From Enterococcus phage vB_OCPT_CCS1, in sequence record ON113170.1: DNA of 64,000 nucleotides. One strand, given 5' to 3'. The notes beneath the pieces are model-generated. The model was not told the DNA's origin. It ran no database searches and worked only from the letters and a program-made list of their open reading frames with translations. Shown one piece after another: positions 5,990 through 15,987 of this stretch. Within the stretch, counting starts at the first letter, position 1, and every line of letters begins with the position of its first letter. A program made the translations under genes and the position numbers.

Positions 5990-6130
5990 GTCATTATAAT
6001 ATCAAGAACCACAGGCTTAATAATTAGATTTGAAAGGTTTAGTCTATTAGTAGTTGATTGCTGTAGGGTTCTTTATGCTCTGGCAACCTAGTAGGTTAGA
6101 GCTATGGCAAATTGCCAAAACCTTTTTATT
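5990..6130 (-). repeat. third, degenerate copy of the Y-unit 5' module (R1) lacking a tRNA-like domain
   Basis: R1, R2 (6236-6312) and R3 (6418-6500) align as ATAAAA(A/C)GGTTTT-variable palindrome-ATAG-GTTCC/GCTCT...GGAAC/AGAGC-ATAAAGAAC..ACAGC; the outer stem shows two compensatory base-pair changes. Confidence 0.5.
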
Positions 6131-6312
6131 ATGTACAAGAATCTATTTTATACGTTGCTCTAACCAAACTGAGCTACGGGAGGATGATTCCTCCCGGCAG
6201 GACTCGAACCTGCGACCCACGGCTCCATAGGCAATAAAAATCGCTGTTAGATTCTTTATGTTCCGGCACCCATTAAGGATGGAACTATAGCTATGCTAAA
6301 ACCGTTTTATTT
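6131..6312 (-). ncRNA. Y RNA-like ncRNA unit A: permuted tRNA-like domain clamped by a 15-bp helix with a 7-nt bulge
   Basis: Minus strand reads AAGAAUCU[AACAGCG]AUUUUUAU...GCAGGTTCGAGTCCTGC-CGGGAGG-ATCA-TCCTCCCG-TA-GCTCAGTTTGGTTAGAGC-AACG-UAUAAAAUAGAUUCUU. The acceptor strands are perfectly complementary across a 4-nt loop. The 3'-half lying before the 5'-half rules out a normal or intron-containing tRNA. Confidence 0.55.
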
Positions 6313-6500
6313 ATGTAACAAGAACGCATTAACTTTAAGCTTTACCAATTAAGCTATACCACCAATGGTGGCAGTTGGATTCGAACCAACAACTCACATT
6401 TTTCAGATGTATTAGTTTTAAAAATTTGCTGTGGCGTTCTTTATGTTCCGGCTACCTGTTAGGTTGGAACTATGACATATGTCAAAACCTTTTTATCTTG
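6313..6500 (-). ncRNA. Y RNA-like ncRNA unit B: conserved 5' stem-loop module plus a circularly permuted tRNA-like domain (anticodon-like hairpin, T-arm, closed acceptor hairpin, D-arm), closed by a bulged long stem
   Basis: Minus strand reads TACATCTGAAAAATGTG-AGTTG-GTTGGTTCGAATCCAAC-TGCCACC-ATT-GGTGGTA-TA-GCTTAATTGGTAAAGC. The 3' strand GCGTTCTT pairs with AAGAACGC located 5' of the domain. TTGACA-17-TATTAT promoter at 6506-6534. Confidence 0.55.
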
Positions 6501-6505
6501 TCTTT

Positions 6506-6534
6506 ATAATAGCATAAGCTATTTAAACTGTCAA
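6506..6534 (-). promoter_or_regulatory. promoter TTGACA-17-TATTAT driving the Y RNA-like cluster
   Basis: Motif and spacing. Confidence 0.5.
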
Positions 6535-6813: not shown

Positions 6814-6895
6814 TGGGGAGTGATGGAGTTGCACCACCCGAGCTTTCGCAACTGATTTACAGTCAGCCCCGCTACTACTTACGGTATAACTCCCC
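6814..6895 (-). tRNA. tRNA-Tyr(GTA), class II
   Basis: Acceptor GGGGAGT/ACTCCCC; anticodon arm GCTGA-CTGTAAA-TCAGT; long variable arm; atypical T-loop TGCAACT. Confidence 0.5.
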
Positions 6896-7091
6896 GTATA
6901 AGTATGTATATATCAATACAATGTACAAGAACTTTTAGTGAGGTAGCTCTCATAGTGTATTAATGGGGTACATTGTGTAACTTCAACTAGTATTGCCTCA
7001 CACGTGACTAGTCTTATATACACAATGCCTACATACAACCCGATAGACCACCCTTGGTACGCATATTAAGAGGCGCAGGGTGGTACGAATA

Positions 7092-7162
7092 TATGGATTG
7101 CAGGATTTGAACCCGCACCTTTTTGACGGAAGCCAAAAATACTACCCTTATATTAAATCCAC
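7092..7162 (-). tRNA. tRNA-Gly(TCC), probable
   Basis: Acceptor GTGGATT/AATCCAT; loop CTTCCGT; T-arm GCGGGTTCAAATCCTGC. Confidence 0.45.
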
Positions 7163-7370: not shown

Positions 7371-7420
7371 ATTATAACACAAACTTACATGCTGTAAACA
7401 ACTATTTGTAAGTTTTTTTA
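7371..7420 (-). promoter_or_regulatory. promoter module: A-tract, hairpin, -35 TTTACA, 17 nt, extended -10 TGTTATAAT, upstream of tRNA-Pro
   Basis: Related copies at 15925-15975 and 16436-16470. Confidence 0.45.
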
Positions 7421-7433
7421 ATTTATCCATTCG

Positions 7434-7510
7434 GGACAGTGTGCTTTAACCATTCAGCCACCCGCAGGGGCAACCCGCAGGACGGGAATCGAACCCGTAT
7501 AACACTGTCC
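7434..7510 (-). ncRNA. tRNA-mimic (Y RNA-like) module: 9-bp closing stem, T-arm, closed acceptor-like hairpin, D-arm
   Basis: GGACAGTGT-TAT-ACGGGTTCGATTCCCGT-CCTGCGGG-TTGCC-CCTGCGGG-T-GGCTGAATGGTTAAAGC-ACACTGTCC. No anticodon arm; 5' and 3' ends base-pair. Confidence 0.55.
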
Positions 7511-7675
7511 TATTGGATAGGCTTGTGTACCTGTCATCTTCCGATTACACACACCTAGTCTAGTTACCGTACCAATAGATTTGACAGGAATCTAGGGTAA
7601 CGCCCAATATGGTGTTAATTCACCTCGTATTCTGTTACAGGTTTGCAACCCTGAACAAGGATGACCAATCCTAAT

Positions 7676-7742
7676 GATATGCGAGGGGATTTGAACCCCT
7701 ATCTACTTCATAGGTCACTTTATCCACTTAAGCTACGCATAC
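7676..7742 (-). ncRNA. truncated tRNA-like element (67 nt; acceptor, D-arm and T-arm present; anticodon arm reduced to about 16 nt)
   Basis: GTATGCG-TA-GCTTAAGTGGATAAAGT-GACCTATGAAGTAGAT-AGGGGTTCAAATCCCCT-CGCATAT. Confidence 0.4.
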
Positions 7743-7799
7743 CTATTTAATTTCTAGCTAGGTAACTAAATTCACTGCACCTTGCGCAGAGTACAGCTA

Positions 7800-7872
7800 T
7801 GGAGCATAGCGGACTTGAACCGCTGACATCTACCTTGCAAGGGTAGCGCTCTCCCAACTGAGCTAATGCCCC
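7800..7872 (-). tRNA. tRNA-Ala(TGC)
   Basis: GGGGCAT...CTACC-CTTGCAA-GGTAG...AGCGGTTCAAGTCCGCT-ATGCTCC. Confidence 0.75.
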
Positions 7873-7877
7873 GAAAA

Positions 7878-7950
7878 CACCTCCGCTGAGATTTGAACTC
7901 AGAATGCGGGATTAGAAATCCTGTGGTTTATCCAATTAGCCTACGGAGAT
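7878..7950 (-). tRNA. tRNA-Arg(TCT)
   Basis: Acceptor ATCTCCG/CGGAGGT; loop TTTCTAA; T-arm CTGAGTTCAAATCTCAG. Confidence 0.65.
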
Positions 7951-7954
7951 ATAC

Positions 7955-8119
7955 TTACTTAAACGGAAGATAAATTGTTTGACCAATTCTAATTTTATTA
8001 GGGTCTTTAATATTCCTATTCTGACCATGTAACCAAATTAGTCTCCATAACCAAGGCTTGCCATAATATTTTCTAGCAATAGAATACAATGTGTCACCTT
8101 TTTTAACTGTGTATTTCAT
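7955..8119 (-). CDS. stand-alone LysM-domain mini-protein (54 aa)
   Basis: Not in the ORF track (under 60 aa). ATG at 8119 with GGGGGT RBS; translates MKYTVKKGDTLYSIARKYYGKPWLWRLIWLHGQNRNIKDPNKIRIGQTIYLPFK, the classic LysM pattern. Confidence 0.5.
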   Translation of the reverse strand: MKYTVKKGDTLYSIARKYYGKPWLWRLIWLHGQNRNIKDPNKIRIGQTIYLPFK

Positions 8120-8148
8120 AACAATTACCCCCTAATTTATAAATATGG

Positions 8149-8517
8149 CTATATATAGGATACTCCTGTAAACAATTCAATTGCTTCAATTTCAGTATGG
8201 AAGTTTTCCCATTCTAAACATTCATAGAAATCTTGTAAGATATGCTTGTCTTTCCTGTAAACAGTCTCACCTTTATGGGCTTTCTCACAGATTTCTCTAA
8301 CAGCATCCACATTATATTTACCACCAGTTTTATACTGTTCTAAACCAGAATCTAGTAAAACTCGTTGTACTTCTTCACTCTTATCTCCTGCTTTCCAAGA
8401 GTCAAAAGCTTTATCATACAATGTATCTTCCATGTTTTCACCTTCTACTTCCATGATTGATTGAATAAATCTTTGCCACTTAGAAGGCTCTTTGTGTTTA
8501 CCTTTACGAAAACTCAT
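8149..8517 (-). CDS. hypothetical protein (122 aa)
   Basis: GGAGG RBS. Confidence 0.5.
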   Translation of the reverse strand: MSFRKGKHKEPSKWQRFIQSIMEVEGENMEDTLYDKAFDSWKAGDKSEEVQRVLLDSGLEQYKTGGKYNVDAVREICEKAHKGETVYRKDKHILQDFYECLEWENFHTEIEAIELFTGVSYI

Positions 8518-8544
8518 TATTAGCCTCCATTATCTTTAATGAAC

Positions 8545-8631
8545 CGAGGAGGAGGGACTCGAACCCCCAAACGCTTTTACACGTCTACATGATTTCAAAT
8601 CACGCTGAATACCAGTTATGATACTCCCCGA
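8545..8631 (-). tRNA. tRNA-Ser(TGA), class II, atypical D-arm
   Basis: Acceptor CGGGGAG/CTCCTCG; anticodon arm CGTGA-TTTGAAA-TCATG; long variable arm. Confidence 0.5.
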
Positions 8632-8741
8632 AAAAGAAACTGATTGACTAGTACTGTTAGTTGACTAGTCAACCGGAACTACTTAAACCGAACTCTTTAA
8701 ACAGCTTTAGTAGTTATTATTTAGGTTTTTAAATAAACAAC

Positions 8742-9002
8742 TTACCAAAACCAAACTAGATTTAATGCTAGTCGTTTACTAATAATAGGTGATTTTCTAT
8801 GTCTAACCGATTTAAACTTACGTACATTCCCCTTATATGGTGTAAAGTCAATCTTACAAGGTTCAACATAATTAAATTTACGGTTAGCTCGTTTAATTAC
8901 TGCTTGCTTTTGTTTAGAAGCTTTAATTTCTTTTTCAAATGCTTCTTTTTCAATGTTGTTAGCTATGGTTGCTAAATGTTCAGTCATAAAGCTCATGTCC
9001 AT
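8742..9002 (-). CDS. hypothetical basic protein (86 aa)
   Basis: AAGGAG RBS; lies just downstream of tRNA-Ser(GGA). Confidence 0.4.
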   Translation of the reverse strand: MDMSFMTEHLATIANNIEKEAFEKEIKASKQKQAVIKRANRKFNYVEPCKIDFTPYKGNVRKFKSVRHRKSPIISKRLALNLVWFW

Positions 9003-9021
9003 CTCTCCTTACACGTTCTAT

Positions 9022-9108
9022 GGAAGGCATGGGATTCGAACCCACACATGCTGTTACACATCTACTTGGTTTCCAACCAAGCCTCTTTACCGTTTGAGTA
9101 ACCTTCCG
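9022..9108 (-). tRNA. tRNA-Ser(GGA), class II
   Basis: GGAAGGT-TA-CTCAAACGGTAAAGAG-CTTGG-TTGGAAA-CCAAG, long variable arm, GTGGGTTCGAATCCCAT-GCCTTCC. Confidence 0.7.
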
Positions 9109-9202
9109 TCTTGGGAGCAGGCGGGTTTGTGTCAAGTACACAATACCTAATCTTCTGTGCATGTTGTTCCCTAGGCTTTATGCACACCCTACTATCTGCA
9201 TA

Positions 9203-9388
9203 CTAACAGACCTGCCAATTTTCTAACACTTTTTCTAATGCTTCGTATGGACACATTACTGTCTTACCGTGAACACCATGTATTCTCAAAATAATATAAT
9301 GTTCATTTATCTCAGAGGTAACAAAGTATATCTTGTCTTTCACTAAACCTAAACTTCCGTTTAAACCAATGAATTTTAAATACATCAT
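9203..9388 (-). CDS. hypothetical protein (61 aa)
   Basis: AAGGAGG RBS. Confidence 0.4.
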   Translation of the reverse strand: MMYLKFIGLNGSLGLVKDKIYFVTSEINEHYIILRIHGVHGKTVMCPYEALEKVLENWQVC

Positions 9389-9539
9389 GTTACCTCCTTA
9401 TTATGTATAACCCATGAAGCATCATGGGGGGACTGTAGTATGCCCAACCTGCGGGGATGCTCCGCTCTGAATCCGTAGAAATCAGCCACAATTCGATATT
9501 TATTTAATGAAAAAATTAGATAGGATTCGACTGCTTGAC

Positions 9540-9640
9540 AAAGGCAGTCTATGGAGTAGACGGGACTCGAACCCGTGTCCTAACGTAGAACCATACAAAA
9601 TTCTACGGGCGTAGTTACTAGTTTTAATCTACGTTAAGGT
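9540..9640 (-). ncRNA. tRNA-like/Y-like structured element: canonical T-arm (ACGGGTTCGAGTCCCGT) followed by a closed hairpin GACTGC-CTTTGTCAA-GCAGTC, preceded by a 7-bp hairpin CGTAGAA...TTCTACG; no matching 5' acceptor strand
   Basis: Hand folding; the 3' acceptor CTACTCC has no GGAGTAG partner anywhere upstream. Confidence 0.35.
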
Positions 9641-10132
9641 TACAACTAATAACTGAAATTACCTTAACTGAGTGGTAAAGCCTCTCCTGAGTTATCCACT
9701 TTTACCTCAGCGTTGTCGGTTGATGAGTCCTCTAGGTAGAACCGACCCTAGTCTAGAGGGGTAAGTGTGTAGCTAGTCTAAAACTAGGCTACAGCTAATA
9801 ATTCTTCGTTTTTAGCAGTTATATTTACTGCGATGATTAAGTCATCACTCTGCCCGCTATTCATATACTCCTTACGCCAGTCGAAACCAAAACTACCCCA
9901 ACATAAGAATTTCTTTTGACTAACCCTACCCTTCCGGCAGGGTCTAATCAAAAGTATACAATTAAAAAAATGAAAATGAGTTACGGAAAATGTAACGTCT
10001 CCACCACCGGACTATAAGGGTAAGTTGTTCCGGTCTTTAACCTAAGTACTTTACTTAAATCTAACAGGACAGCCTTCATTACGTAAACTACTTAACCATG
10101 TAAAACGTAAAGGTCAATTTCCGTTGACCTAA

Positions 10133-10206
10133 TGCAAGAGGGGGGATTCGAACCCCCACTGAATAGATTCTAAGTCTACTTCCTCTGCCAGTTGGGATAC
10201 TCTCGC
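10133..10206 (-). tRNA. tRNA with anticodon TAG (Leu-type anticodon) but a short 5-nt variable arm; atypical
   Basis: GCGAGAG...GTAGA-CTTAGAA-TCTAT-TCAGT-GGGGGTTCGAATCCCCC-CTCTTGC. Confidence 0.45.
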
Positions 10207-10290
10207 ATAATAACAGCCCTACCCAACCGCTGTTCTGCTAGCATATAGCTTGCAGGCTTTTTATCTGTGTTATAAAAACCAGAAAGGCTA

Positions 10291-10374
10291 TACGGGTAAC
10301 AGGAGTCGAACCTGCATGTCACAAGGGACAATGGATTTTAAGTCCACAGCGTATACCAGTTCCGCCATACCCGC
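10291..10374 (-). tRNA. tRNA-Leu(TAA), class II
   Basis: GCGGGTA...GTGGA-CTTAAAA-TCCAT, long variable arm, GCAGGTTCGACTCCTGT-TACCCGT. Confidence 0.7.
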
Positions 10375-10552
10375 ATAATCACTTTTTAAACTAGATTATT
10401 TATGATTTCCCACTTCTGAAAAAAATACCACTTTATATATCAACATTTTTCTTATGAATGGGTTAAGATATGTTTTAACGAAAAAGAGGCTAAAAGAGTA
10501 TTTCCTCAAAATTTTTTGTCAAGTTAATCTAGTAAGGAAAAGTGTAACCTTA

Positions 10553-10623
10553 TGTGACTGCTCAGAATCGAACTGAGATTCATGTTTCCACAGAACACTG
10601 CCTTACCGTTAGGCTACAGTCAC
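10553..10623 (-). tRNA. tRNA-His(GTG) with encoded G-1
   Basis: (G)GTGACTG-TA-GCCTAACGGTAAGGC-GTGTT-CTGTGGA-AACAT...TCAGTTCGATTCTGA-CAGTCAC. Confidence 0.75.
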
Positions 10624-10637
10624 CATCATGTGTTCCT

Positions 10638-10676
10638 TACAAGAATTACTATACAGCATCTTGTAAGGAAAGTCAA
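10638..10676 (-). promoter_or_regulatory. promoter TTGACT-17-TATAGT with the -10 box embedded in a 10-bp palindrome CCTTACAAGA/TCTTGTAAGG (operator-like), upstream of tRNA-His
   Basis: Motif, spacing and dyad symmetry. Confidence 0.45.
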
Positions 10677-10695
10677 CACTTAAATGTAATTTTAT

Positions 10696-10917
10696 TTAAA
10701 AAAGTTTTGATGAATCTAATTGAGAGAAACTTTCAGGTAGAGAACCTAGTTCTTCCATATACTCTTGGTCAATCTCATAAACAGATAACTCGGTTACTTC
10801 GTTTTCAATAGTAAGTTTCATTGCTTCTGCTGTTTGTATACTGTGTCCTTCTATTTGAAGTTTATCATCAAGATAAATACCTTCCCAGTCTTCTGCAACT
10901 ACATAGTCTGCTTTCAA
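10696..10917 (-). CDS. hypothetical acidic protein (73 aa; TTG start as in the ORF track)
   Basis: Frame offset by one from the upstream ORF, which stops 9 nt away. Confidence 0.35.
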   Translation of the reverse strand: MKADYVVAEDWEGIYLDDKLQIEGHSIQTAEAMKLTIENEVTELSVYEIDQEYMEELGSLPESFSQLDSSKLF

Positions 10918-10925
10918 GATATTAC

Positions 10926-11177
10926 CTACTTTCTTCTCAATTTCTGATAAAAATTATTATTCTTGTAATCATCCTCGTGGGCATAGAATTTTTTCATGTC
11001 ATATGTCCAACAAGTTTCTTCTACTCGTTTATGATGTGTCAATGTTACTTCGTCATCAAAACAACCTTGATTTAATTTATGCCTGTAATTTCTATTAACC
11101 ATTCTTTTTATATCTCGAACAGTTGAATCTTTCATACAAACATAACGGTAATAGGGTTTTCTGTAACTTCTACTCAT
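10926..11177 (-). CDS. hypothetical basic protein (83 aa)
   Basis: AAGGAGG RBS. Confidence 0.45.
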   Translation of the reverse strand: MSRSYRKPYYRYVCMKDSTVRDIKRMVNRNYRHKLNQGCFDDEVTLTHHKRVEETCWTYDMKKFYAHEDDYKNNNFYQKLRRK

Positions 11178-11331
11178 TGTAAGTCCTCCTTAATAGATAC
11201 TTACAATTTAGACAATACTTTCTTCACAGGAACCACTCCTTATTAATAAAAGCTACCTCCCGAAAAACGTTTCTTCACCAAAGTGTAAGACGTAAACTAA
11301 CGACAGGTCATAGTTTTCCAATTAAGGCAAA

Positions 11332-11405
11332 TACCAGTGAGAGGATTTGAACCTCTGACACCCGCCTTATCAAGACGATGCTCTAACCAACTGAGCTACA
11401 CTGGT
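11332..11405 (-). tRNA. tRNA-Ile(GAT)
   Basis: ACCAGTG-TA-GCTCAGTTGGTTAGAGC-TCGTC-TTGATAA-GGCGG-AGAGGTTCAAATCCTCT-CACTGGT. Confidence 0.7.
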
Positions 11406-11558
11406 GTGACCCATGTGTCAGGACTTTCACCTGTTCTCGGGGTGCCCCGCCTCTCTACTAATCTCCTCATTCGGTGCCCCTACTAGAGTGACTAGAGATA
11501 GTTAGCAATAAAAATTATATATCATGAATCAAATTTTTACTGCATCCTATATACACGA

Positions 11559-11630
11559 TACCGTCTACAGGATTTGAACCTGTGACATCCACCTTGTAAG
11601 GGTGACGTTCTCCCACTGAACTAAGACGGT
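11559..11630 (-). tRNA. tRNA-Val(TAC)
   Basis: ACCGTCT-TA-GTTCAGTGGGAGAAC-TCACC-CTTACAA-GGTGG-ACAGGTTCAAATCCTGT-AGACGGT. Confidence 0.7.
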
Positions 11631-11699
11631 GAAATATGGAACCCTACCAGAGGATTTCTTTCGGTATTACAGTCACCTCGGCATGAACAAAGCCAGATA

Positions 11700-11760
11700 T
11701 TGAGGTCTGGACTTCTCACGCCCCGGGAGTCGAACCCAGTATAGACAAACCATATTTTAT
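11700..11760 (-). ncRNA. tRNA-like fragment (T-arm CTGGGTTCGACTCCCGG plus 3' acceptor GGCGTGA without a 5' partner)
   Basis: Hand folding. Confidence 0.3.
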
Positions 11761-11854
11761 ACGGAAGACAGGATTCGAACCTGCGATATAGGAGTTTTAG
11801 TGCACTTATTGTCTCCACGGTATCCGTTGCGTATGCCCTACACGCCACTTCCGT
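11760..11854 (-). ncRNA. long (95 nt) atypical tRNA-like gene: acceptor ACGGAAG/CTTCCGT, D-arm and T-arm canonical, but no resolvable anticodon arm (contains GGAG...CTCC with a 20-nt insert)
   Basis: Hand folding; could be an unusual class II tRNA or a decoy. Confidence 0.35.
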
Positions 11855-11861
11855 ATGTTAA

Positions 11862-11934
11862 CCGACAGTAAAGGAATCGAACCTCTATCACTAGATTCGT
11901 AGTCTAGTATCCTATCCAATTGAACGAACTGTCG
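11862..11934 (-). tRNA. tRNA-Arg(ACG)
   Basis: CGACAGT...CTAGA-CTACGAA-TCTAG...AGAGGTTCGATTCCTTT-ACTGTCG. Confidence 0.6.
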
Positions 11935-12036
11935 CTCTAGGCTAGCAATTACGCAGACTGACTATGGGCACCTTCGTCCCGTCCCCTGTAAGTGCCCTCC
12001 TACAGGTTGTCCGTGGCACCGCAATGTACTAACCGA

Positions 12037-12110
12037 TGTCCCCACAGGGATTTGAACCCCGAACCTCCCGATTAAAAGTCGGGTGCTCTAGCCGATTGAG
12101 CTATGAAGAC
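12037..12110 (-). tRNA. tRNA-Lys(TTT)
   Basis: GTCTTCA-TA-GCTCAATCGGCTAGAGC-CCCGA-CTTTTAA-TCGGG-CGGGGTTCAAATCCCTG-TGGGGAC. Confidence 0.7.
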
Positions 12111-12159
12111 AGTTGTGTTTTTCAAGATAACCCTCTCGAAAAACCGTTACTAATAGAAA

Positions 12160-12242
12160 AACTAAGGGTCTCGACTGACAGATTTGAACTGCCTGCTCCT
12201 CCTAAGAGGCGTGTTACCAAAGCCATACACCAACTCTTCGAG
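12160..12242 (-). ncRNA. aberrant tRNA-like element (good T-arm GGCAGTTCAAATCTGTC, weak acceptor pairing 5/7, no standard anticodon arm)
   Basis: Hand folding; overlaps the 3' end of tRNA-Lys(CTT). Confidence 0.3.
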
Positions 12243-12243
12243 A

Positions 12244-12318
12244 ATATCCCCTACAGGATTCGAACCTGTGACCCCCTGATTAAGAGTCAGGTGCTACCAC
12301 CAACTGAGCTAAGGAGAT
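12244..12318 (-). tRNA. tRNA-Lys(CTT)
   Basis: ATCTCCT...CCTGA-CTCTTAA-TCAGG-ACAGGTTCGAATCCTGT-AGGGGAT. Confidence 0.65.
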
Positions 12319-12334
12319 AAGATTACCAATAGCT

Positions 12335-12412
12335 AGTTAAGCCTTACGGAATCGAACCGCCATGAGGTTATGAAGCTCACATAGACCACTAGACACAAAA
12401 CTAGCTTATTGA
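12335..12412 (-). ncRNA. aberrant tRNA-like element (T-loop TTCGATT; acceptor 5/7)
   Basis: Hand folding. Confidence 0.3.
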
Positions 12413-12510
12413 TAAAATTCTATATAGATAATTGTATGCAATGTTCGCACTAACTAACCAGATAACTAGCCAATCATTCAAAACATTAATTTGTGAGTTT
12501 CCGCTCACAA

Positions 12511-12582
12511 TGCTGATTGAGAGAATCGAACTCCCATTCCCGGGTTACAAAGCCGGAGTAATAGCCGTTATACTAAATCAGC
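12511..12582 (-). tRNA. tRNA-Thr(TGT)
   Basis: GCTGATT-TA-GTATAACGGCTATTAC-CCGGC-TTTGTAA-CCCGG-GGGAGTTCGATTCTCTC-AATCAGC. Confidence 0.65.
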
Positions 12583-12584
12583 GT

Positions 12585-12604
12585 AACCCCTCAATAGAGG
12601 GGAA
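12585..12604 (-). terminator. hairpin CCCCTC-AATA-GAGGGG after the AAA ATPase stop codon
   Basis: Stem-loop. Confidence 0.3.
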
Positions 12605-12607
12605 TTA

Positions 12608-13699
12608 TTATACTAGGTTACCATACCCGTAGGTATTTGTTTGAGCTTGTTTAAACATGATGCTCTTGATAGTTAAGTCGTTGTACTTTTCATCGTCTTC
12701 ATCATCAAGGTACACATCAACGTTAACGTTCTTACCGGAAATACCGATTGTTTCGTCTTTACCAACTGTTAAGTCTTTACTGTTGAATGATACATCAAAG
12801 TAGATGCTATCTTCTTTTGTACGACTACCGAACGAAACTCTGTCACCGAATAAATCTAAGCTTCGAGAGTTGATTACAACAGGTTGTAACCCACCTTCGA
12901 ATTGAATAGTTACTGTGTAATATTGATTTTCAATATTAAGGATGTTTAAGTCAGCAATAGCTTCACCAAATGGGATACCAAAGTTTAATTCCAACGCAAT
13001 AGCTCGTAAGCAGTCATAATTTAACTTAATTCTACGGCTAAACTTAACAACACTGTCAATTTCACCATAGTAAGCTTCGTCTAACTTATCTTGCAAGTAA
13101 GTACGAATTTCATCTGCATCAGGATATTCGAAACGTAAATGGTAATGAAAACGTCCCGGACGGTTAAGCATAAAGTCATTTACACGATTTAAGCTATTAA
13201 CAGTAAGAGCGTAGATACGTTTACGTTGTGATAAACCATCGAATAAGCTCAATAGTTTTTCTTGTGGTTCACGACCGTCACGGTCATTGAATACTTTTTC
13301 AAACTCATCGAACAGGATAAGAGACTCTTGGTCAATACTGTCAATAAATTCTGCAATCCCCGGATAAGCTTCTGTAATTAAGATAACAGGCATACCCTCT
13401 TCAATAGCTCGTTGAGATAAGATTTGAGTAAATAGTGATTTACCAATCCCTTTGTCTCCACTTAAAATGATTCCTAAGCTACGATTAATTGTTTTAAATG
13501 TGTGTAGCACTTTTTCAATTTTAGCTAAACGGTCACCGTAAACTTTAGGTTCTTTCAAATCAAAATCGTCTGTTACTACTAGCGAGAACCCTGACATTTG
13601 ATTGAACCGAACTTTATAAGTTTGCGCAGGTAACTTATCATAAGTTTTAAGGTCGTTTGCATAAATTTCATAGTTACTACCATAGTTGATTACTTTCAT
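12608..13699 (-). CDS. AAA+ family ATPase (classical AAA clade)
   Basis: Start taken at MKVINYG (AAGGGG RBS). Walker A GDKGIGKS, Walker B LILFDEFE, second region of homology NRPGRFHYHLRF. Embedded in the tRNA operon. Confidence 0.75.
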   Translation of the reverse strand: MKVINYGSNYEIYANDLKTYDKLPAQTYKVRFNQMSGFSLVVTDDFDLKEPKVYGDRLAKIEKVLHTFKTINRSLGIILSGDKGIGKSLFTQILSQRAIEEGMPVILITEAYPGIAEFIDSIDQESLILFDEFEKVFNDRDGREPQEKLLSLFDGLSQRKRIYALTVNSLNRVNDFMLNRPGRFHYHLRFEYPDADEIRTYLQDKLDEAYYGEIDSVVKFSRRIKLNYDCLRAIALELNFGIPFGEAIADLNILNIENQYYTVTIQFEGGLQPVVINSRSLDLFGDRVSFGSRTKEDSIYFDVSFNSKDLTVGKDETIGISGKNVNVDVYLDDEDDEKYNDLTIKSIMFKQAQTNTYGYGNLV

Positions 13700-13738
13700 A
13701 AATATTCCCCTTATTCGTGTTTTACTAGCATTTGCTAA

Positions 13739-13812
13739 TGGAGAGGGGTGGAATTGAACCACCGACCCCTAGGGTTTCAATCTAGTGCTCTAACCTACTG
13801 AGCTACCTCTCC
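13739..13812 (-). tRNA. tRNA-Phe(GAA)
   Basis: GGAGAGG-TA-GCTCAGTAGGTTAGAGC-CTAGA-TTGAAAC-CCTAG-GGTGGTTCAATTCCACC-CCTCTCC. Confidence 0.6.
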
Positions 13813-13933
13813 GTGTCAATTTGGACTTATCCCCCACGTGGTTACTAAGATAAGTCCTATGCCTTTGAAGTGTGGATACTCAAAAATGAGTACAGGTACT
13901 AAAAATCTGATGACAAGTCAGATTTATATCATA

Positions 13934-14004
13934 AGCAGAAGGTGAGATTCGAACTCACATTCAGGGGTTTGCAATCCCTAGCCTTAACCACTTGGCTACT
14001 TCCG
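13934..14004 (-). tRNA. tRNA-Cys(GCA)
   Basis: GCGGAAG-TA-GCCAAGTGGTTAAGGC-AGGGA-TTGCAAA-CCCCT-GTGAGTTCGAATCTCAC-CTTCTGC-T. Confidence 0.7.
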
Positions 14005-14017
14005 CAATATCAAAATA

Positions 14018-14089
14018 CACGCTGTGAAGGATTCGAACCCCCGTCTTCCGGGTTGGAGCCGGAAATGATAGCCACTACACCAACAGCGC
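14018..14089 (-). tRNA. tRNA-Trp(CCA)
   Basis: GCGCTGT...TCCGG-CTCCAAC-CCGGA...GGGGGTTCGAATCCTTC-ACAGCGT. Confidence 0.65.
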
Positions 14090-14164
14090 AAGATTCGGAG
14101 GGGAGGGACTAGCAACCCTCCGAAAGATGTAAGATAATGAGAGATTAAAACATACCACTATTAA

Positions 14165-14215
14165 AAGTGGAATAGGTAATTAAGGATTCGAACCTTACAA
14201 GCCCTTACTGCTTAC
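14165..14215 (-). ncRNA. mini tRNA-like remnant (acceptor plus T-arm only, about 48 nt) immediately downstream of a promoter
   Basis: AGGTAAG-CAGTAAGGGCTTG-TAAGGTTCGAATCCTTA-ATTACCT. Confidence 0.3.
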
Positions 14216-14226
14216 CTTGTAAACTT

Positions 14227-14255
14227 ATAGTATCATGTGTTGTACCGAAAGTCAA
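14227..14255 (-). promoter_or_regulatory. promoter TTGACT-17-TACTAT
   Basis: Motif and spacing; a CTTGTAA motif lies nearby. Confidence 0.4.
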
Positions 14256-14274
14256 CACTTTTTATAAAAATAAT

Positions 14275-14294
14275 AGGGAGAAATATTTCTCCCT
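14275..14294 (-). terminator. perfect palindrome AGGGAGAAATATTTCTCCCT followed by a U-rich tract (minus sense), between tRNA-Met and the upstream promoter
   Basis: Hairpin plus AUUAUUUUUAUAAAA. Confidence 0.45.
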
Positions 14295-14300
14295 AAAAAA

Positions 14301-14373
14301 TGGACTACTTGGGAATCGAACCCAAACCTGTCAGTTATGAGCTGACGGCTCTGACCTACTGAGCTAATAGTCC
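14301..14373 (-). tRNA. tRNA-Met(CAT) (Met or lysidine-Ile cannot be distinguished)
   Basis: GGACTAT-TA-GCTCAGTAGGTCAGAGC-GTCAG-CTCATAA-CTGAC-TGGGTTCGATTCCCA-GTAGTCC. Confidence 0.75.
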
Positions 14374-14406
14374 GTGTAATAATACCACGAAATAAACCTT
14401 AGTAAG

Positions 14407-14508
14407 TCATACAGTCCCAGAAAGGGAGGCATATGATACTAGTGTTGAGTGCCATAATCGTTTAATAAATGTGACTGAGAGAGTAATAAATTTCTTAGGC
14501 ATGTCCAT
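14407..14508 (-). CDS. possible 33-aa peptide MDMPKKFITLSVTFIKRLWHSTLVSYASLSGTV
   Basis: AAAGGAGG RBS 5 nt before the ATG; flanked by a 14-bp inverted repeat (GGGAGGCATATG / CATATGCCTCC). Confidence 0.3.
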   Translation of the reverse strand: MDMPKKFITLSVTFIKRLWHSTLVSYASLSGTV

Positions 14509-14580
14509 ATGCCTCCTTTCCAATAATGATAGTTTTAAGATATAAACAGAATAAATAAAAGAGAAAATAATAATGAATAA

Positions 14581-14652
14581 TAGCGCATGAGAGAGTCGAA
14601 CTCTCGATTCCGGTTCGAAAGACCGGTGTCTTGACCGCTTGACCAATGCGCC
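14581..14652 (-). tRNA. tRNA-Glu(TTC)
   Basis: GGCGCAT-TG-GTCAAGCGGTCAAGAC-CCGGT-CTTTCGA-ACCGG-GAGAGTTCGACTCTCTC-ATGCGCT. Confidence 0.75.
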
Positions 14653-14657
14653 ATAAA

Positions 14658-14732
14658 CGAGCTATATGGGACTTGAACCCATGACCTTCTCCGTGACAGG
14701 GAGACGAGCACTCCTGACTGCTCCAATAGCCC
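14658..14732 (-). tRNA. tRNA-Asp(GTC)
   Basis: GGGCTAT-TG-GAGCAGTCAGGAGTGCTC-TCTCC-CTGTCAC-GGAGA-ATGGGTTCAAGTCCCAT-ATAGCTC. Confidence 0.75.
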
Positions 14733-14769
14733 AATGTTTCCCCAACCACCGCCACCTAGGGGATTCGTA

Positions 14770-14890
14770 CGTCTACGTGAGTTTTTTGGTTATAGTTCCT
14801 TGTTTAAGACAAGGAAGTACGAGTGGACTACCAATTTACCACTCTGCGGTTCTGATTGCGGTAGGTGGGATATGTAAGATAAAAAGACCA
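14770..14890 (-). pseudogene. degenerate tRNA-like sequence (mutated T-loop GTACGAATCC; 7-bp anticodon-like stem TTCCTTG-TCTTAAA-CAAGGAA)
   Basis: Hand folding. Confidence 0.3.
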
Positions 14891-14899
14891 CTCTTAGAA

Positions 14900-15917
14900 T
14901 GATTTAATCTGTAAAAAACACATCGCATAAACGAGATGCAGTTATAGCTCTATCAAGCAACCTACACCGATTCCGTCGATTACTACCGACATCGCCTTGC
15001 TCGTGTACTTTGAGCGCCCATTTCCAACCCTCGGTTGCTAATGTTTCTCTCCTAACCTACACCTGAGAGTGGCACACGTCTGTGCTAGTATTTTATGCCT
15101 ATTAACTGATTCGCAGGCACACTGCTTAATTCAGCCAACCAATCGGCATCCGATAAGATTGATTGTTTCCGTAGGTTCTTTAAGTCACTGGAGTGGTACT
15201 GCCCCACTCACGCCTATTAAAGTGTTAACTTAATAGATAAAAACTACTCATAACAGGTTTACTACCATAGCATTCTCTACTTCCGCCACAGTGACATGTT
15301 TAAAAACTCAAAACTTAATAGATTAAGGGCTTTTCTTCCTGCTTCATATACACTCACTGCATTCGGTCACATACTCAGAGAGGCTGAACCATCGGGAGCT
15401 ACCCGATAGCTTCTCTCTGCCTTTAATGTATGGTCTAGCACGGTGGCTAACAACGTTCACCTAAACATTCAGCTATTAAAAGTATTAATTAACATATATC
15501 CTTATGTCTTCTATAATATTTTCATCAAAAGCTGACTTAGGCTACTTGTACCAAGGTCTCTTGTTAAACCTGTATTTCTACAGTTCTCGTCAAAGGGAGT
15601 CTTTTGAGTTTTCCAAGGTCTGCCAAGCTTCTCACACTTCCACCTAACTTGGATTCTTTTCCACAGGAACGTCTATTGTATCCCCCAAGAGTCTTGTACC
15701 TTACAATCCATGTATACTCCACATAACGCTTAACTGATATTAGCTTTTACTAATAGTTACTCCTATGTTACCATAAGACCTACCTGCAACCCAAAGCACT
15801 ATCGCACCTTCGGTTACATTCAGATTCACGCCACGCTATCCTAGCAAGCTGTTCAAACTTTCTGCACTAGGTTCAAAATCTATTAAGTTTTCAATTTTTA
15901 ACCACTAACTTGTGGTG
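14900..15917 (-). ncRNA. candidate large structured ncRNA (about 1 kb ORF-free, GC-balanced, hairpin-rich); GOLLD/ROOL-like is the suggested class from context only
   Basis: No ORF of 60 aa or more on either strand across roughly 1 kb inside the tRNA array; local stems such as GAGTGG-tactgcc-CCACTC and nested CAGAGAG..ATCGGG-AGCTA-CCCGAT..CTCTCTG; dedicated promoter at 15925-15953. Confidence 0.35.
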
Positions 15918-15924
15918 TAATACT

Positions 15925-15975: not shown

Positions 15976-15987
15976 ATTTTTTTTTGA

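What the first reader, a model, noticed from the sequence alone, without database searches (positions are those of the whole stretch)
7676..14890. Multiple aberrant tRNA-like elements interleaved with canonical tRNAs
Besides about 25 canonical tRNAs, there are tRNA-like elements at 7676-7742, 9540-9640, 11700-11760, 11760-11854, 12160-12242, 12335-12412, 14165-14215 and 14770-14890. These keep a near-perfect T-arm and often the D-arm, but lack a functional anticodon arm or a matching 5' acceptor strand. Some are closed by hairpins in the same way as the Y-like modules. The number and shared style suggest a family of tRNA mimics or decoys rather than random decay.
Basis: seen in the sequence. 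Interest (0 to 1): 0.55.

Follow-up and report, generated by a model that had tools for sequence, protein, structure and literature searches.

The report
Anticodon-less tRNA look-alike RNAs in phage
An Enterococcus phage carries, between its ordinary tRNA genes, several conserved small RNA genes that keep the upper half of the tRNA shape but have no working anticodon, so they probably bind tRNA-recognising proteins and cannot decode.

Summary
The window is a Schiekvirus (Herelleviridae) Enterococcus phage. All RNA genes lie on the minus strand.

Of the eight listed loci:
- 9540-9640 is simply the 3' tRNA-like domain of a normal tmRNA.
- 14770-14890 is a structured RNA whose 5' tRNA(CAU)-like part was lost here by a ~180-nt deletion.
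- 7676-7742, ~11634-11755, 11759-11856, 12166-12243, 12323-12415 and 14174-14217 are real tRNA-shaped elements. ARAGORN and Rfam do not call them as tRNAs.

Five of these six show compensatory base changes in diverged relatives. Three differ from diverged relatives at about 2% of positions, against about 13% in adjacent spacers. They are therefore selected structured RNAs, not decaying pseudogenes. The sixth (7676-7742) has no divergent homologue to test.

The T arm, a GG-containing D-like loop and a 12-bp acceptor/T stack are kept. The anticodon arm is a stub, a freely varying hairpin, or absent. Two elements are closed by helices, as in Y RNAs.

The array sits beside a DUF2828 protein whose predicted fold matches Ro60, with Y-RNA-like modules next to it.

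Function is inferred only: non-decoding tRNA mimics, matured by the tRNA-processing enzymes, that bind tRNA-recognising proteins.

The parts
7676..7742 (-). E1: tRNA-shaped element. It has a 7-bp acceptor (GUAUGCG/CGCAUAU), U8-A9, a D arm (GCUU-AAGUGGAUA-AAGU) and a T arm (AGGGG-UUCAAAU-CCCCU). Only 15 nt stand where the anticodon arm plus variable loop (21-22 nt) should be.
   Evidence: Read from the sequence and the MFE fold. No ARAGORN or Rfam call. ARAGORN at -ps80 gives 'tRNA-???' with a 2-nt anticodon. GenBank annotations call it tRNA-Pseudo, tRNA-OTHER or tRNA-Arg. Present in 9 of 13 Schiekvirus loci at 98.8-100% identity. Absent as a precise 133-nt cassette in the others.
9552..9899 (-). 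tmRNA (ssrA), tag peptide AKNEELLAVA. The finding's 9540-9640 is its 3' tRNA-like domain.
   Evidence: ARAGORN. Rfam RF00023, 142.7 bits against a cut-off of 47.
11634..11755 (-). E3: permuted, Y-RNA-style module. In order: closing stem AUAUGG/CCAUAU; T arm CUGGG-UUCGACU-CCCGG; a closed 'acceptor' hairpin GGCGUGA.../...UCAUGCC extended by an inner hairpin CCAGA/UCUGG; then hairpin GAGG/CCUC.
   Evidence: Folds. Nine pairs changed on both sides relative to the L063 homologue; 0 of 500 shuffles reach this and slid controls give 0-2. Present in 6 of 13 Schiekvirus loci as a precise 122-nt indel between E4 and tRNA-Val.
11759..11856 (-). E4: five-helix tRNA-like RNA. It has a 7-bp acceptor (ACGGAAG/CUUCCGU, discriminator A), a 5-6 bp D-like hairpin with a GG loop, hairpin 1 (ACGG-AUA-CCGU), hairpin 2 (GGAG-18 nt-CUCC) and a T arm (GCAGG-UUCGAAU-CCUGU). 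There is no anticodon loop.
   Evidence: Independent MFE folds of the sequence variants give the same topology. Hairpin 1 becomes CCGUG-GAAGA-CACGG and hairpin 2 becomes GGAAG/CUUCC in L053, L054 and L056. The D-like stem changes from G-C to A-U in Porthos. Annotated 'tRNA-OTHER undetermined' in phage 113. No Rfam tRNA hit at E<=10.
12166..12243 (-). E5: tRNA-like RNA that starts 1 nt after tRNA-Lys(CUU). It has an acceptor UCUCGA/UCGAGA, an invariant D-like segment GUUGGUGUAUGGCUUUGGUAACAC, a 4-bp hairpin with a tetraloop in place of the anticodon arm, a T arm GGCAG-UUCAAAU-CUGUC and a conserved CCC tail.
   Evidence: Fold. Against L063 the acceptor changes CUCGA/UCGAG to UUCGG/CCGAA, and the stub hairpin is replaced by CUCUAG-9 nt-CUAGAG. 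Five pairs changed on both sides; 3 of 500 shuffles reach this. Present in all 13 Schiekvirus loci at 97.7-100%.
12323..12415 (-). E6: tRNA(CAU)-like core closed by a helix. The core has a GG-containing D-like segment, a 5-bp stem with loop C-UUCAUAA-C, and a T arm GCGG-UUCGAUU-CCGU. It is closed by a 4-bp helix plus a 16-bp helix, and ends 3 nt upstream of tRNA-Lys(CUU).
   Evidence: Fold. The core is 95% identical in L063, while the outer helix has a completely different sequence that still pairs. Five pairs changed on both sides; 0 of 500 shuffles reach this. One difference in 93 nt against L053-55, while the spacer just upstream (12416-12510) differs at 26-27 of 95 positions. The best Rfam hit is tRNA-Sec at 16.8 bits, E=2.3.
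14174..14217 (-). E7: acceptor/T-arm mini-helix. It consists of AGGUAA/UUACCU, a 14-nt GGG-containing linker and a T arm UAAGG-UUCGAAU-CCUUA. It begins about 3 nt from the predicted transcription start.
   Evidence: Promoter-like site TTGACT-17-TACTAT with a TG at 14255-14227, and a terminator-like hairpin at 14170-14155. Conserved in all Schiekvirus loci and in the more distant L004 and L064, with a compensatory A-U to G-C change in the T stem.
14155..14170 (-). Hairpin with a U-rich tail directly after E7. A hairpin of different sequence occupies the same place in L004 and L064.
14740..14870 (-). E8: 3' remnant of a tRNA(CAU)-like gene (14857-14870) fused to a structured domain. The domain has a long-range helix CCCAC-CUACCGC/GCGGUGG-UUGGGG, a D-like hairpin GAGUGG-12 nt-CCACUC, an 8-bp hairpin and a 4-bp hairpin.
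   Evidence: The alignment with 21C1, Porthos and L003 shows a ~180-nt deletion in the window, which removes the D arm, the CAU anticodon arm and the 5' half of the T arm. The intact gene is annotated tRNA-Met, tRNA-Ile or pseudo in relatives. Compensatory changes occur in the 8-bp hairpin (UUCCUUGU/ACAAGGAA against UUUAUUGU/ACAAUAA) and the 4-bp hairpin (CGUA/UACG against CGCA/UGCG).
6814..6895 (-). Probable tRNA-Tyr(GUA), just below the default thresholds. It is the 25th tRNA.
   Evidence: Rfam tRNA 27.7 bits against a cut-off of 29. ARAGORN -ps90 calls tRNA-Tyr. Annotated tRNA-Tyr in phage 113. A tRNA-Tyr(GUA) is called by default ARAGORN at the corresponding position, just after tRNA-Gly, in L063 and L064. 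Identical (100%) in 12 of 13 relatives and 98.9% in L060.
7420..7520 (-). Context: Y-RNA-like (YrlA-type) module. In order: a long 5'/3' stem with an internal loop containing CGAAU, a T arm, a closed hairpin and a D arm.
   Evidence: Rfam YrlA 30.1 bits, below the cut-off of 69. Fold with z = -3.6.
6020..6510 (-). Context: three tandem Y-like modules. Two of them have a T arm, then a closed 7-bp hairpin, then a canonical D arm (T arms at 6378-6386 and 6201-6209).
   Evidence: Sequence, folds, T-arm scan.
4287..5822 (-). Context: 511-aa DUF2828/DUF7788 protein with an invariant DxSxS MIDAS motif. Its predicted fold is that of Ro60 (TROVE plus vWA).
   Evidence: Pfam. Alignment. AlphaFold model with pLDDT 89. 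Foldseek best matches are Ro60 1yvr (TM 0.64, E 3.8e-8) and phage phiLo TROVE 9kop. PHROG 850 'RNA-binding protein'.

Best explanation
Six of the eight loci are small non-coding RNA genes built on the 'top half' of tRNA. These are E1 (7676-7742), E3 (11634-11755), E4 (11759-11856), E5 (12166-12243), E6 (12323-12415) and E7 (14174-14217).

Each keeps:
- a T arm with a canonical T loop;
- a GG-containing D-like loop that can form the tRNA elbow;
- in E1, E4, E5 and E7, an acceptor helix that stacks on the T stem to give the usual ~12-bp mini-helix.

The anticodon arm is a stub (E1, E5), is replaced by freely varying hairpins (E4), or is missing (E7). In E3 and E6 the module is closed by a helix, as in bacterial Y RNAs.

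Shown: the elements are real, lie on the same strand as the tRNAs, abut them, are conserved, and keep their helices through compensatory changes.

Inferred:
- They are co-transcribed with the phage tRNAs.
- RNase P and RNase Z cut them out, and they may be CCA-tailed. No phage tRNA here encodes CCA.
- They accumulate as L-shaped RNAs that cannot decode.
- They work by binding proteins that read the tRNA elbow and acceptor end.

The most likely setting is the neighbouring RNA-centred accessory module: a Ro60-like protein, Y-like RNAs, tmRNA and ROOL. In that setting they would tether or titrate host RNA-processing or RNA-degrading enzymes, or tRNA-directed defence proteins.

The two remaining loci are the tmRNA's tRNA-like domain and a 5'-truncated tRNA(CAU)-like gene fused to another structured RNA.

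The confidence of 0.55 is for the whole statement. That E3-E7 are selected, structured, non-decoding tRNA-like RNAs I put at about 0.85. That they act as protein-binding mimics, and are not mere processing signals, I put at about 0.45.
For: - Not ordinary tRNAs: no ARAGORN or Rfam tRNA call, even at E<=10 on an 800-nt slice. They are reached only at 70-80% ARAGORN thresholds, alongside false positives.
- Selected structure: E3 has 9 pairs changed on both sides, E5 has 5 and E6 has 5, matched by 0-3 of 500 shuffles, while slid controls give 0-2. E4 keeps five helices although hairpin 1 and hairpin 2 have different sequences in L053, L054 and L056. The E7 T stem changes A-U to G-C in L004 and L064.
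- Conservation: E5, E6 and E7 differ at 4 of 215 positions against L053-55, and adjacent spacers at 42 of 315, p about 1e-6.
- What is conserved is the elbow and the acceptor/T stack. The anticodon-arm substitutes vary freely.
- Position: E5 starts 1 nt after tRNA-Lys(CUU). E6 ends 3 nt before it. E3 ends 3 nt before tRNA-Val. E7 starts at a predicted transcription start.
- No phage tRNA encodes CCA, so all of them need RNase Z and the CCA-adding enzyme.
- Generality: in 18 related tRNA-bearing loci there are 94 orphan T arms on the tRNA strand and 1 on the other. Acceptor partners lie at non-canonical distances of 25-125 nt.
- Context: the DUF2828 protein has the Ro60 fold. YrlA-type modules lie beside it. 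DUF2828 homologues also occur in distant loci that carry tRNA arrays and orphan T arms.
- Precedent: a phage Ro60 with Y-like RNAs binds host PNPase (PMC12135203), and bacterial Y RNAs mimic tRNA (PMC4201824).
Against: - No expression, processing or binding data exist for any of these elements.
- The covariation rests mainly on one diverged lineage (L063). E7 adds L004 and L064, and E4 adds the L053/L054/L056 group. The number of independent events is therefore small.
- E1 has no divergent homologue, so nothing shows that it is under selection.
- E1 and E3 are missing from 4 and 7 of 13 close relatives. One relative with a 94% identical ATPase (L066) lacks the whole block. The elements are therefore dispensable.
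- EFP01 has lost the Ro60-like gene but keeps E4-E7 intact. This argues against strict dependence on that protein.
- The canonical-order elements have free acceptor ends and lack the long bulged stem that Ro60 binds in Y RNAs.
Confidence: 0.55

Rival explanations
1. They are tRNA pseudogenes: duplicated or truncated tRNA genes that are decaying neutrally in a recombination-prone accessory region.
For: - E8 is visibly truncated in this genome.
- E1 and E3 are gained or lost as precise cassettes.
- Homing-endonuclease genes interrupt the array in relatives.
- tRNAscan-based annotations label E1 and the E8 parent as pseudo.
Against: - Compensatory changes maintain the helices in E3-E7.
- E5, E6 and E7 are about seven times less diverged than adjacent spacers.
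- None is a close copy of any tRNA in the window.
- The block of conservation in E6 stops exactly at the edge of its outer helix.
Confidence: 0.1
2. They are processing punctuation, like plant mitochondrial t-elements, mascRNA or MHV68 TMER tRNA-like parts. Their only job would be to give RNase P and RNase Z cleavage sites that define the ends of neighbouring RNAs. The excised pieces would be by-products.
For: - The acceptor/T mini-helix and the elbow are exactly what is conserved.
- The elements abut other RNA genes within 1-5 nt.
- E7 sits at the 5' end of a transcription unit.
- t-elements set this precedent (PMC1920247).
Against: - Most neighbours are canonical tRNAs that carry their own RNase P and RNase Z determinants, so extra sites between tRNA-Lys and tRNA-Lys, or between tRNA-Arg and tRNA-Val, are redundant.
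- E3 and E6 are closed by helices and offer no free acceptor end.
- Strong sequence conservation of the E5 D-like segment and the E6 loop is more than a cleavage signal needs.
Confidence: 0.15
3. They are Y-RNA-type cofactors of the phage Ro60-like (DUF2828) protein. Each would tether that ring protein to a different host enzyme, for example PNPase or RNase R.
For: - The protein has the Ro60 fold.
- Three or four YrlA-style modules lie next to the gene.
- E3 has the same permuted order, and E6 has a long closing helix.
- The DUF2828 gene co-occurs with tRNA arrays and orphan T arms in distant loci.
- Phage phiLo Ro60, its Yrl RNAs and host PNPase form a complex (PMC12135203).
Against: - E1, E4, E5 and E7 have ordinary tRNA topology without a bulged 5'/3' stem.
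- There is no Rfam YrlA hit for any of them.
- EFP01 lacks the protein yet keeps E4-E7 unchanged.
- L010-L019 carry orphan T arms with no DUF2828 gene within 10 kb of the ATPase gene.
Confidence: 0.2
4. They are working but unusual tRNAs that decode, or are charged for a non-ribosomal use.
For: - E6 keeps a conserved UUCAUAA loop on a 5-bp stem.
- Some annotations name E1 tRNA-Arg and the E8 parent tRNA-Met or tRNA-Ile.
Against: - E1, E4, E5 and E7 have no 7-nt anticodon loop on a 5-bp stem.
- The stub hairpins differ in length and sequence between lineages.
- The E6 acceptor is buried in a helix of at least 20 bp.
- None has the G3-U70 pair that would allow anticodon-independent charging by AlaRS (read from the sequence).
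Confidence: 0.03

Closest known systems
Bacterial and phage Y RNA-like RNAs (YrlA, Rfam RF02553) with Ro60/Rsr
   Same: - A tRNA-like module with a canonical T arm and D-loop features but no anticodon.
- The module is closed by a helix (E3, E6).
- The elements are encoded near a Ro60-fold protein.
- Phage examples are known (PMC4201824, PMC12135203).
   Different: - Four elements (E1, E4, E5, E7) have normal tRNA strand order with free acceptor ends.
- No bulged Ro-binding stem with the GNCGAA motif.
- No YrlA model hit.
- They are interleaved with tRNAs up to 9 kb from the gene.
- The protein belongs to the DUF2828 family, not to a recognised TROVE orthologue.
tRNA-like domain of tmRNA
   Same: An acceptor helix plus T arm with a reduced D region and no anticodon arm, closest to E7. 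One of the eight loci actually is this domain.
   Different: The others have no mRNA-like region, no pseudoknots, no G3-U70 alanine identity pair and no tag reading frame.
tRNA-like processing elements: plant mitochondrial t-elements, mascRNA from MALAT1, MHV68 TMER viral tRNA-like RNAs
   Same: - tRNA-shaped RNAs that are not used for decoding.
- They keep the acceptor/T mini-helix recognised by RNase P, RNase Z and the CCA-adding enzyme.
- They are embedded in longer transcripts.
   Different: Those elements define the ends of an adjacent mRNA, lncRNA or miRNA. Here most neighbours are tRNAs that need no help, and no processing data exist.
Phage T4 stable RNAs species 1 and 2 (rnaC, rnaD) in the T4 tRNA cluster (from my own knowledge, not checked here)
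   Same: Small stable RNAs of unknown function, encoded among phage tRNA genes and matured with them.
   Different: Different phage family and host. No sequence or structural comparison was made here.
tRNA pseudogenes, as annotated by tRNAscan-SE
   Same: E1 and the parent of E8 are labelled pseudo or undetermined tRNAs in several GenBank records.
   Different: E3-E7 show compensatory substitutions and strong purifying selection, which pseudogenes do not.

Membership tests
Canonical tRNA (Rfam RF00005 / ARAGORN) | Score at or above the curated threshold (29 bits), or a default ARAGORN call | tested here: not met
   No hit for E1 or E3-E8 at the gathering score, nor at E<=10. Only 6816-6893 comes close, at 27.7 bits.
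Canonical tRNA (Rfam RF00005 / ARAGORN) | A 5-bp anticodon stem with a 7-nt loop carrying U33 and a 3-nt anticodon | tested here: not met
   - E1: 15 nt in place of the anticodon arm plus variable loop.
- E4: hairpins with 3-nt and 18-nt loops.
- E5: a 4-bp stem with a tetraloop.
- E7: none.
- E6: a UUCAUAA loop, but with a C-C closing mismatch, and the acceptor is buried in a long helix.
Canonical tRNA (Rfam RF00005 / ARAGORN) | A 7-bp acceptor stacked on a 5-bp T stem with a TTCRANY-type T loop | tested here: met
   E1 has 7+5, E4 has 7+5, and E5 and E7 have 6 plus one mismatch, then 5. T loops are UUCAAAU, UUCGAAU, UUCAAAU and UUCGAAU.
tmRNA (RF00023) | Model score above 47 bits, a tag reading frame and a tRNA-like domain formed by the 5' and 3' ends | tested here: met
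   9549-9899 scores 142.7 bits with tag AKNEELLAVA. This applies only to the finding's 9540-9640.
YrlA / bacterial Y RNA (RF02553) | Model score at or above 69 bits | tested here: not met
   Only 7420-7520 matches, at 30.1 bits. Nothing matches E1-E8.
YrlA / bacterial Y RNA (RF02553) | Permuted order: T arm, closed acceptor-like hairpin, D arm, all enclosed by a 5'/3' stem | tested here: inconclusive
   E3 has the closing stem, T arm and closed hairpin, but a non-D-like third hairpin. E6 is closed by a long stem but is in normal order. E1, E4, E5 and E7 are not permuted.
YrlA / bacterial Y RNA (RF02553) | Ro60-binding bulged helix with a GNCGAAN0-1G-type motif | tested here: not met
   Not seen in E1-E8 by reading the sequence. 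7420-7520 has CCCGAAUGG in an internal loop (motif from PMC4201824).
YrlA / bacterial Y RNA (RF02553) | Encoded next to a Ro60 orthologue and bound by it | not testable with these tools
   A Ro60-fold protein is encoded at 4287-5822, 1.9-9 kb from the elements. Binding cannot be tested here.
tRNA pseudogene | Neutral divergence: substitutions break helices as often as in controls, and the rate is like that of the flanking spacer | tested here: not met
   For E3-E7. Not testable for E1, which has no divergent copy. Partly met for E8, which carries a 5' deletion.
t-element / mascRNA-type processing signal | Cleaved by RNase P and RNase Z, thereby defining the end of an adjacent functional RNA | not testable with these tools
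   The structural prerequisites are present, namely the 12-bp acceptor/T stack and the elbow. There are no cleavage data.

The most novel reading that the evidence does not exclude
Herelleviridae-type phages encode a diversified repertoire of anticodon-less tRNA mimics inside their tRNA arrays. These RNAs would be matured by the host tRNA machinery and then act as sponges or adaptors. They could soak up host factors that attack or read the tRNA acceptor end and elbow, such as tRNA-directed immune toxins and quality-control nucleases. Alternatively, together with the phage Ro60-like ring, they could redirect host exonucleases. That would make this an RNA-based counter-defence layer not yet described for phages.
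Probability: 0.25. Interest if true: 0.85.

Novelty: new variant of a known kind. Interest (0 to 1): 0.6.

Why it matters
- Phage tRNA arrays are usually read only as codon-supply or anti-nuclease back-up sets.
- Here, about a fifth of the tRNA-shaped genes in the array cannot decode, yet at least five are under selection for structure.
- Similar orphan T-arm elements are common in related phages: 94 against 201 called tRNA and tmRNA genes in 18 loci.
- These RNAs are absent from Rfam. In GenBank they are unannotated or labelled pseudo or undetermined tRNAs.
- They lie beside a previously unrecognised Ro60-fold protein family (DUF2828) with Y-like RNAs, so they give a concrete, testable entry into RNA-based host manipulation by therapeutic-type Enterococcus phages.
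- Practically, they explain discordant tRNA counts between annotations of near-identical phages.

Tried and rejected
- Rfam at permissive thresholds on the 10.5-kb block and on an 800-nt slice gave no family for E1-E8.
- Searches for more diverged copies of the E6 core in metagenome and viral contig collections returned only near-identical Schiekvirus copies.
- ATPase-based look-ups found no lineage between 84% and 59% identity with usable flanks. L065 is too short, and L066 lacks the block.
- BLAST of the elements against about 50 more distant loci found homologues only for E7 and the Y-like modules. The E1 and E3-E6 families therefore appear confined to Schiekvirus plus the L063 lineage.
- The idea that the elements are recent copies of neighbouring tRNAs was rejected. 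Local alignment scores fall within the tRNA-versus-tRNA background.
- G3-U70 (AlaRS identity) was looked for by eye and not found.
- The MAFFT alignment of E4 mis-registers the divergent middle part, so formal pair counts were not run on it. Independent MFE folds were used instead.
- Literature searches for DUF2828, for Herelleviridae tRNA-like RNAs and for phage tRNA-like decoys found no description of these elements.

Full report
**What the window is.** The 6-17 kb part of the window is 97-98% identical to Enterococcus phages of the genus Schiekvirus (Herelleviridae), such as Porthos, vB_Edu_21C1 and EFDG1. All RNA genes lie on the minus strand. ARAGORN finds 24 tRNAs and one tmRNA (9552-9899, tag AKNEELLAVA). 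Rfam adds a ROOL RNA at 15309-15895, a sub-threshold tRNA at 6816-6893 (27.7 bits against a cut-off of 29) and a sub-threshold YrlA match at 7420-7520. The 6816-6893 locus is a tRNA-Tyr(GUA). ARAGORN calls it at a 90% threshold, it is annotated as tRNA-Tyr in phage 113, and a tRNA-Tyr(GUA) is called by default at the corresponding position in L063 and L064.

**Checking the observation.** I scanned for T-arm motifs (G[GT]TC[AG]ANNC with a stem). Nine lie outside called genes. All are on the minus strand and all fall between 6.2 and 14.2 kb. No such motif with a stem occurs in the other ~50 kb.

Locus by locus:
- 9540-9640 is the 3' tRNA-like domain of the tmRNA. It is not a separate element.
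- 14770-14890 has no intact T arm. The alignment with three relatives shows that the window has lost about 180 nt. The lost stretch includes the D arm, a perfect CUCAUAA anticodon arm and the 5' half of the T arm of a tRNA(CAU)-like gene. That gene is annotated tRNA-Met, tRNA-Ile or pseudo elsewhere.
- The other six loci are real. I call them E1 (7676-7742), E3 (11634-11755), E4 (11759-11856), E5 (12166-12243), E6 (12323-12415) and E7 (14174-14217).

The statement that they lack a matching 5' acceptor strand is wrong for E1, E4, E5 and E7. Neither ARAGORN nor Rfam calls any of them, even at E<=10 on an 800-nt slice. ARAGORN reaches E1, E6 and E7 at an 80% threshold, where E1 gets a 2-nt 'anticodon'. 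It reaches E4 and E5 only at 70%. At those settings it also reports hits inside the ATPase coding sequence.

**Anatomy**:
- E1 has a 7-bp acceptor, U8-A9, a D arm with GG and a perfect T arm. Only 15 nt stand where 21-22 nt of anticodon arm plus variable loop should be.
- E4 has a perfect 7-bp acceptor with discriminator A, a 5-6 bp D-like hairpin with a GG loop, two further hairpins and a perfect T arm. No anticodon loop is present.
- E5 begins 1 nt after tRNA-Lys(CUU). It has a 6-bp acceptor, an invariant D-like segment, a 4-bp stem with a tetraloop, and a T arm.
- E6 has a D-like GG segment, a 5-bp stem with loop C-UUCAUAA-C and a T arm. A 4-bp helix and a 16-bp helix enclose it, and it ends 3 nt before tRNA-Lys(CUU).
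- E7 is an acceptor/T-arm mini-helix with a 14-nt GGG-containing linker. It starts about 3 nt after a predicted transcription start (TTGACT-17-TACTAT with a TG, 14255-14227) and is followed by a hairpin with a U-rich tail.
- E3 is permuted: closing stem, T arm, a closed 'acceptor' hairpin with an extension, then another hairpin. This is the order seen in bacterial YrlA Y RNAs (PMC4201824).

The shared features are the T arm, a GG loop able to form the elbow, and (in E1, E4, E5 and E7) the ~12-bp acceptor/T stack.

**Conservation.** I compared 13 Schiekvirus loci.
- E5, E6, E7 and the tRNA-Tyr are present in all 13.
- E4 is present in 12.
- E1 is present in 9 and E3 in 6.
- E1 and E3 are gained or lost as precise 133-nt and 122-nt cassettes.

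The most diverged Schiekvirus group is L053-55, with coding sequence about 92% identical to the window. Against that group, E5, E6 and E7 together show 3-4 differences in 215 nt. The adjacent spacers show 35-42 in 315 (Fisher p 1e-6 to 8e-6). The spacer just upstream of E6 differs at 26-27 of 95 positions, while E6 differs at 1 of 93, and the boundary falls at the first base of the outer helix.

**Covariation.**
- E4: L053, L054 and L056 carry a different middle section. Hairpin 1 is CCGUG-GAAGA-CACGG instead of ACGG-AUA-CCGU, and hairpin 2 is GGAAG/CUUCC instead of GGAG/CUCC. Independent MFE folds still give the same five-helix topology. The D-like stem changes G-C to A-U in Porthos.
- A more distant lineage was found through its DUF2828 protein (73% identical): locus L063, from a Logan assembly. 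It carries E3, E5 and E6.
- E5 against L063: the acceptor changes CUCGA/UCGAG to UUCGG/CCGAA. The stub hairpin is replaced by a 6-bp stem with a 9-nt loop. The D-like segment and the T arm are identical. Five pairs changed on both sides, reached by 3 of 500 shuffles.
- E6 against L063: the 60-nt core is 95% identical. The outer helix has an unrelated sequence that still pairs. Five pairs changed on both sides, reached by 0 of 500 shuffles.
- E3 against L063: nine pairs changed on both sides across all four helices, reached by 0 of 500 shuffles. Slid controls give 0-2.
- E7 is conserved in the still more distant L004 and L064, with an A-U to G-C change in the T stem.
- The remaining domain of E8 also shows compensatory changes, in two hairpins.

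The caveat is that most of this rests on one or two diverged lineages, so the number of independent events is small. Scans of the metagenome and viral collections with the E6 core returned only Schiekvirus-identical copies.

**Generality.** I took loci around homologues of the AAA ATPase that sits inside the array. The 18 loci with tRNAs hold 201 called tRNA and tmRNA genes. They hold 94 orphan T arms on the tRNA strand and 1 on the opposite strand. The 31 loci without tRNAs have 8 in 557 kb. Thirty of the 94 are near-canonical at a 90% ARAGORN threshold, and the rest are not. In a second count, with slightly different loci excluded, 41 of 92 orphans have a perfect 7-nt acceptor partner, against 13 of 92 for a displaced control 7-mer. 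The partners lie 25-125 nt upstream, which reproduces the mini-helix, short-anticodon-region and long-insert styles seen here. Several orphans have the YrlA order of T arm, closed 7-bp hairpin and D arm.

**Context.** The 511-aa ORF at 4287-5822 carries DUF2828 and DUF7788 domains and an invariant DxSxS MIDAS motif. Its AlphaFold model has pLDDT 89. The best PDB matches cover the full length: Ro60 (1yvr, TM 0.64, E 3.8e-8) and the Thermus phage phiLo TROVE protein 9kop. PHROGs names the family 'RNA-binding protein'. Between this gene and the tRNA array lie three tandem Y-like modules (6020-6510). Two of them have a T arm, a closed hairpin and a canonical D arm. A further module lies at 7420-7520. 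DUF2828 homologues at 33% identity occur in the distant loci L022-L027, next to tRNA arrays with orphan T arms.

Two observations weaken the link to the E elements. EFP01 has lost the gene and the three tandem modules but keeps E4-E7 unchanged. L066 lacks the whole block.

**How it most likely works.**

*Shown:* these are conserved, strand-specific, structure-constrained RNA elements. They keep the tRNA elbow and the acceptor/T stack, and they have no usable anticodon arm.

*Inferred from established knowledge:* RNase P, RNase Z and the CCA-adding enzyme recognise exactly that top half and measure the ~12-bp stack (reviewed in PMC4919913). No tRNA of this phage encodes CCA. The elements are therefore probably excised, and perhaps CCA-tailed, with the tRNAs they abut.

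*Further inference:* the mature RNAs act by binding proteins that read the tRNA top half. The nearest precedents are Y RNAs that tether Ro60 to PNPase, including a phage Ro60/Yrl/PNPase complex proposed to divert a host nuclease (PMC12135203). Another is a Herelleviridae anti-CRISPR that uses t(m)RNA fragments against host nucleases (PMC11662646).

*Rivals:*
- Pure processing punctuation is less likely, because most neighbours are self-sufficient tRNAs.
- Pseudogene decay is excluded for E3-E7. It remains possible for E1 and is visibly true for the 5' part of E8 in this genome.
- Decoding function is excluded by the anatomy.

**Novelty.** tRNA mimics as a kind are known: YrlA, the tmRNA tRNA-like domain, mascRNA and TMER. 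These particular designs are not in Rfam. In GenBank they appear only as 'pseudo', 'OTHER' or mis-assigned tRNAs. I found no paper that describes them. I rate them a new variant of a known kind.

Noticed in passing
window 4287-5822 (-): A DUF2828/DUF7788 protein has a full-length predicted Ro60 (TROVE plus vWA, MIDAS DxSxS) fold. It shows no sequence-level hit to any PDB chain. More than 4700 homologues exist in the protein database, mostly from metagenomes.
   Followed up: yes
window 6020-6510 (-) and 7420-7520 (-): There are three tandem repeats of a Y-RNA-like unit. Each has a conserved upstream hairpin and a 5'/3' stem AAGAAC.../...GUUCUU. Two units carry a T arm, a closed 7-bp hairpin and a canonical D arm. 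A fourth unit at 7420-7520 gives a sub-threshold Rfam YrlA hit (30.1 bits).
   Followed up: partly
window 6814-6895 (-): A tRNA-Tyr(GUA) is missed by default ARAGORN and falls just under the Rfam cut-off. Its T loop is UGCAACU and its D arm is odd. It is identical (100%) in 12 of 13 relatives and 98.9% in L060.
   Followed up: yes
window 14906-15308 (-): A ~400-nt non-coding block lies between ROOL and E8. In 21C1 and Porthos it is followed by a ~45-nt duplicate of the ROOL 3' end. In the IMG/VR relative L003 the block is absent and ROOL abuts the tRNA(CAU)-like gene. It therefore behaves like an insertion. Deletions start at its right edge in this window and in EFP01. It has no Rfam match.
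   Followed up: partly
window 11935-12034 (-): The spacer between tRNA-Lys(UUU) and tRNA-Arg(ACG) folds into a long stem-junction structure (-36 kcal/mol, z about -2.1). It is 87.5% identical in the distant L063 lineage, so it is possibly another structured RNA. It has no Rfam match.
   Followed up: partly
window 11406-11558 (-): A GC-rich spacer upstream of tRNA-Ile contains repeated GGGGCACC motifs and a GGUGAAAGUCC segment. It is 99-100% conserved in close relatives and has no Rfam match.
   Followed up: no
window 12112-12165 (-): The 54-nt spacer after E5 is as conserved as E5 itself, with 0-1 differences against L053-55. It may belong to the same functional unit. It includes a conserved CCCUUAGUUUUU just after the E5 acceptor strand.
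   Followed up: no
L056 (EFP01, KY549443) and L066 (ENA ERZ27269408 k141_26373): These are natural deletion variants. EFP01 lacks most of the Ro60-like gene and the three tandem Y-like modules, and carries an IS-type transposase in the array. L066 goes from the ATPase gene straight to the genes beyond the Ro60-like gene, so it lacks the tRNAs, tmRNA and E1-E6 in between.
   Followed up: partly
L052, L053, L057, L061 (relatives), positions corresponding to window 6900-7100, 9400-9550 and 14700-16000: HNH, GIY-YIG, 'group I intron' endonuclease and endonuclease VII genes are inserted at different points of the tRNA array in different isolates. The array is a hotspot for free-standing homing endonucleases.
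   Followed up: no
L010-L019, about 650-850 nt upstream of the ATPase gene: A conserved orphan T arm (GCAGG-TTCGATT-CCTGT) is followed directly by a ribosome-binding site and the ATG of a small ORF. This is a tRNA-like element placed as an mRNA 5' leader in another phage group.
   Followed up: no
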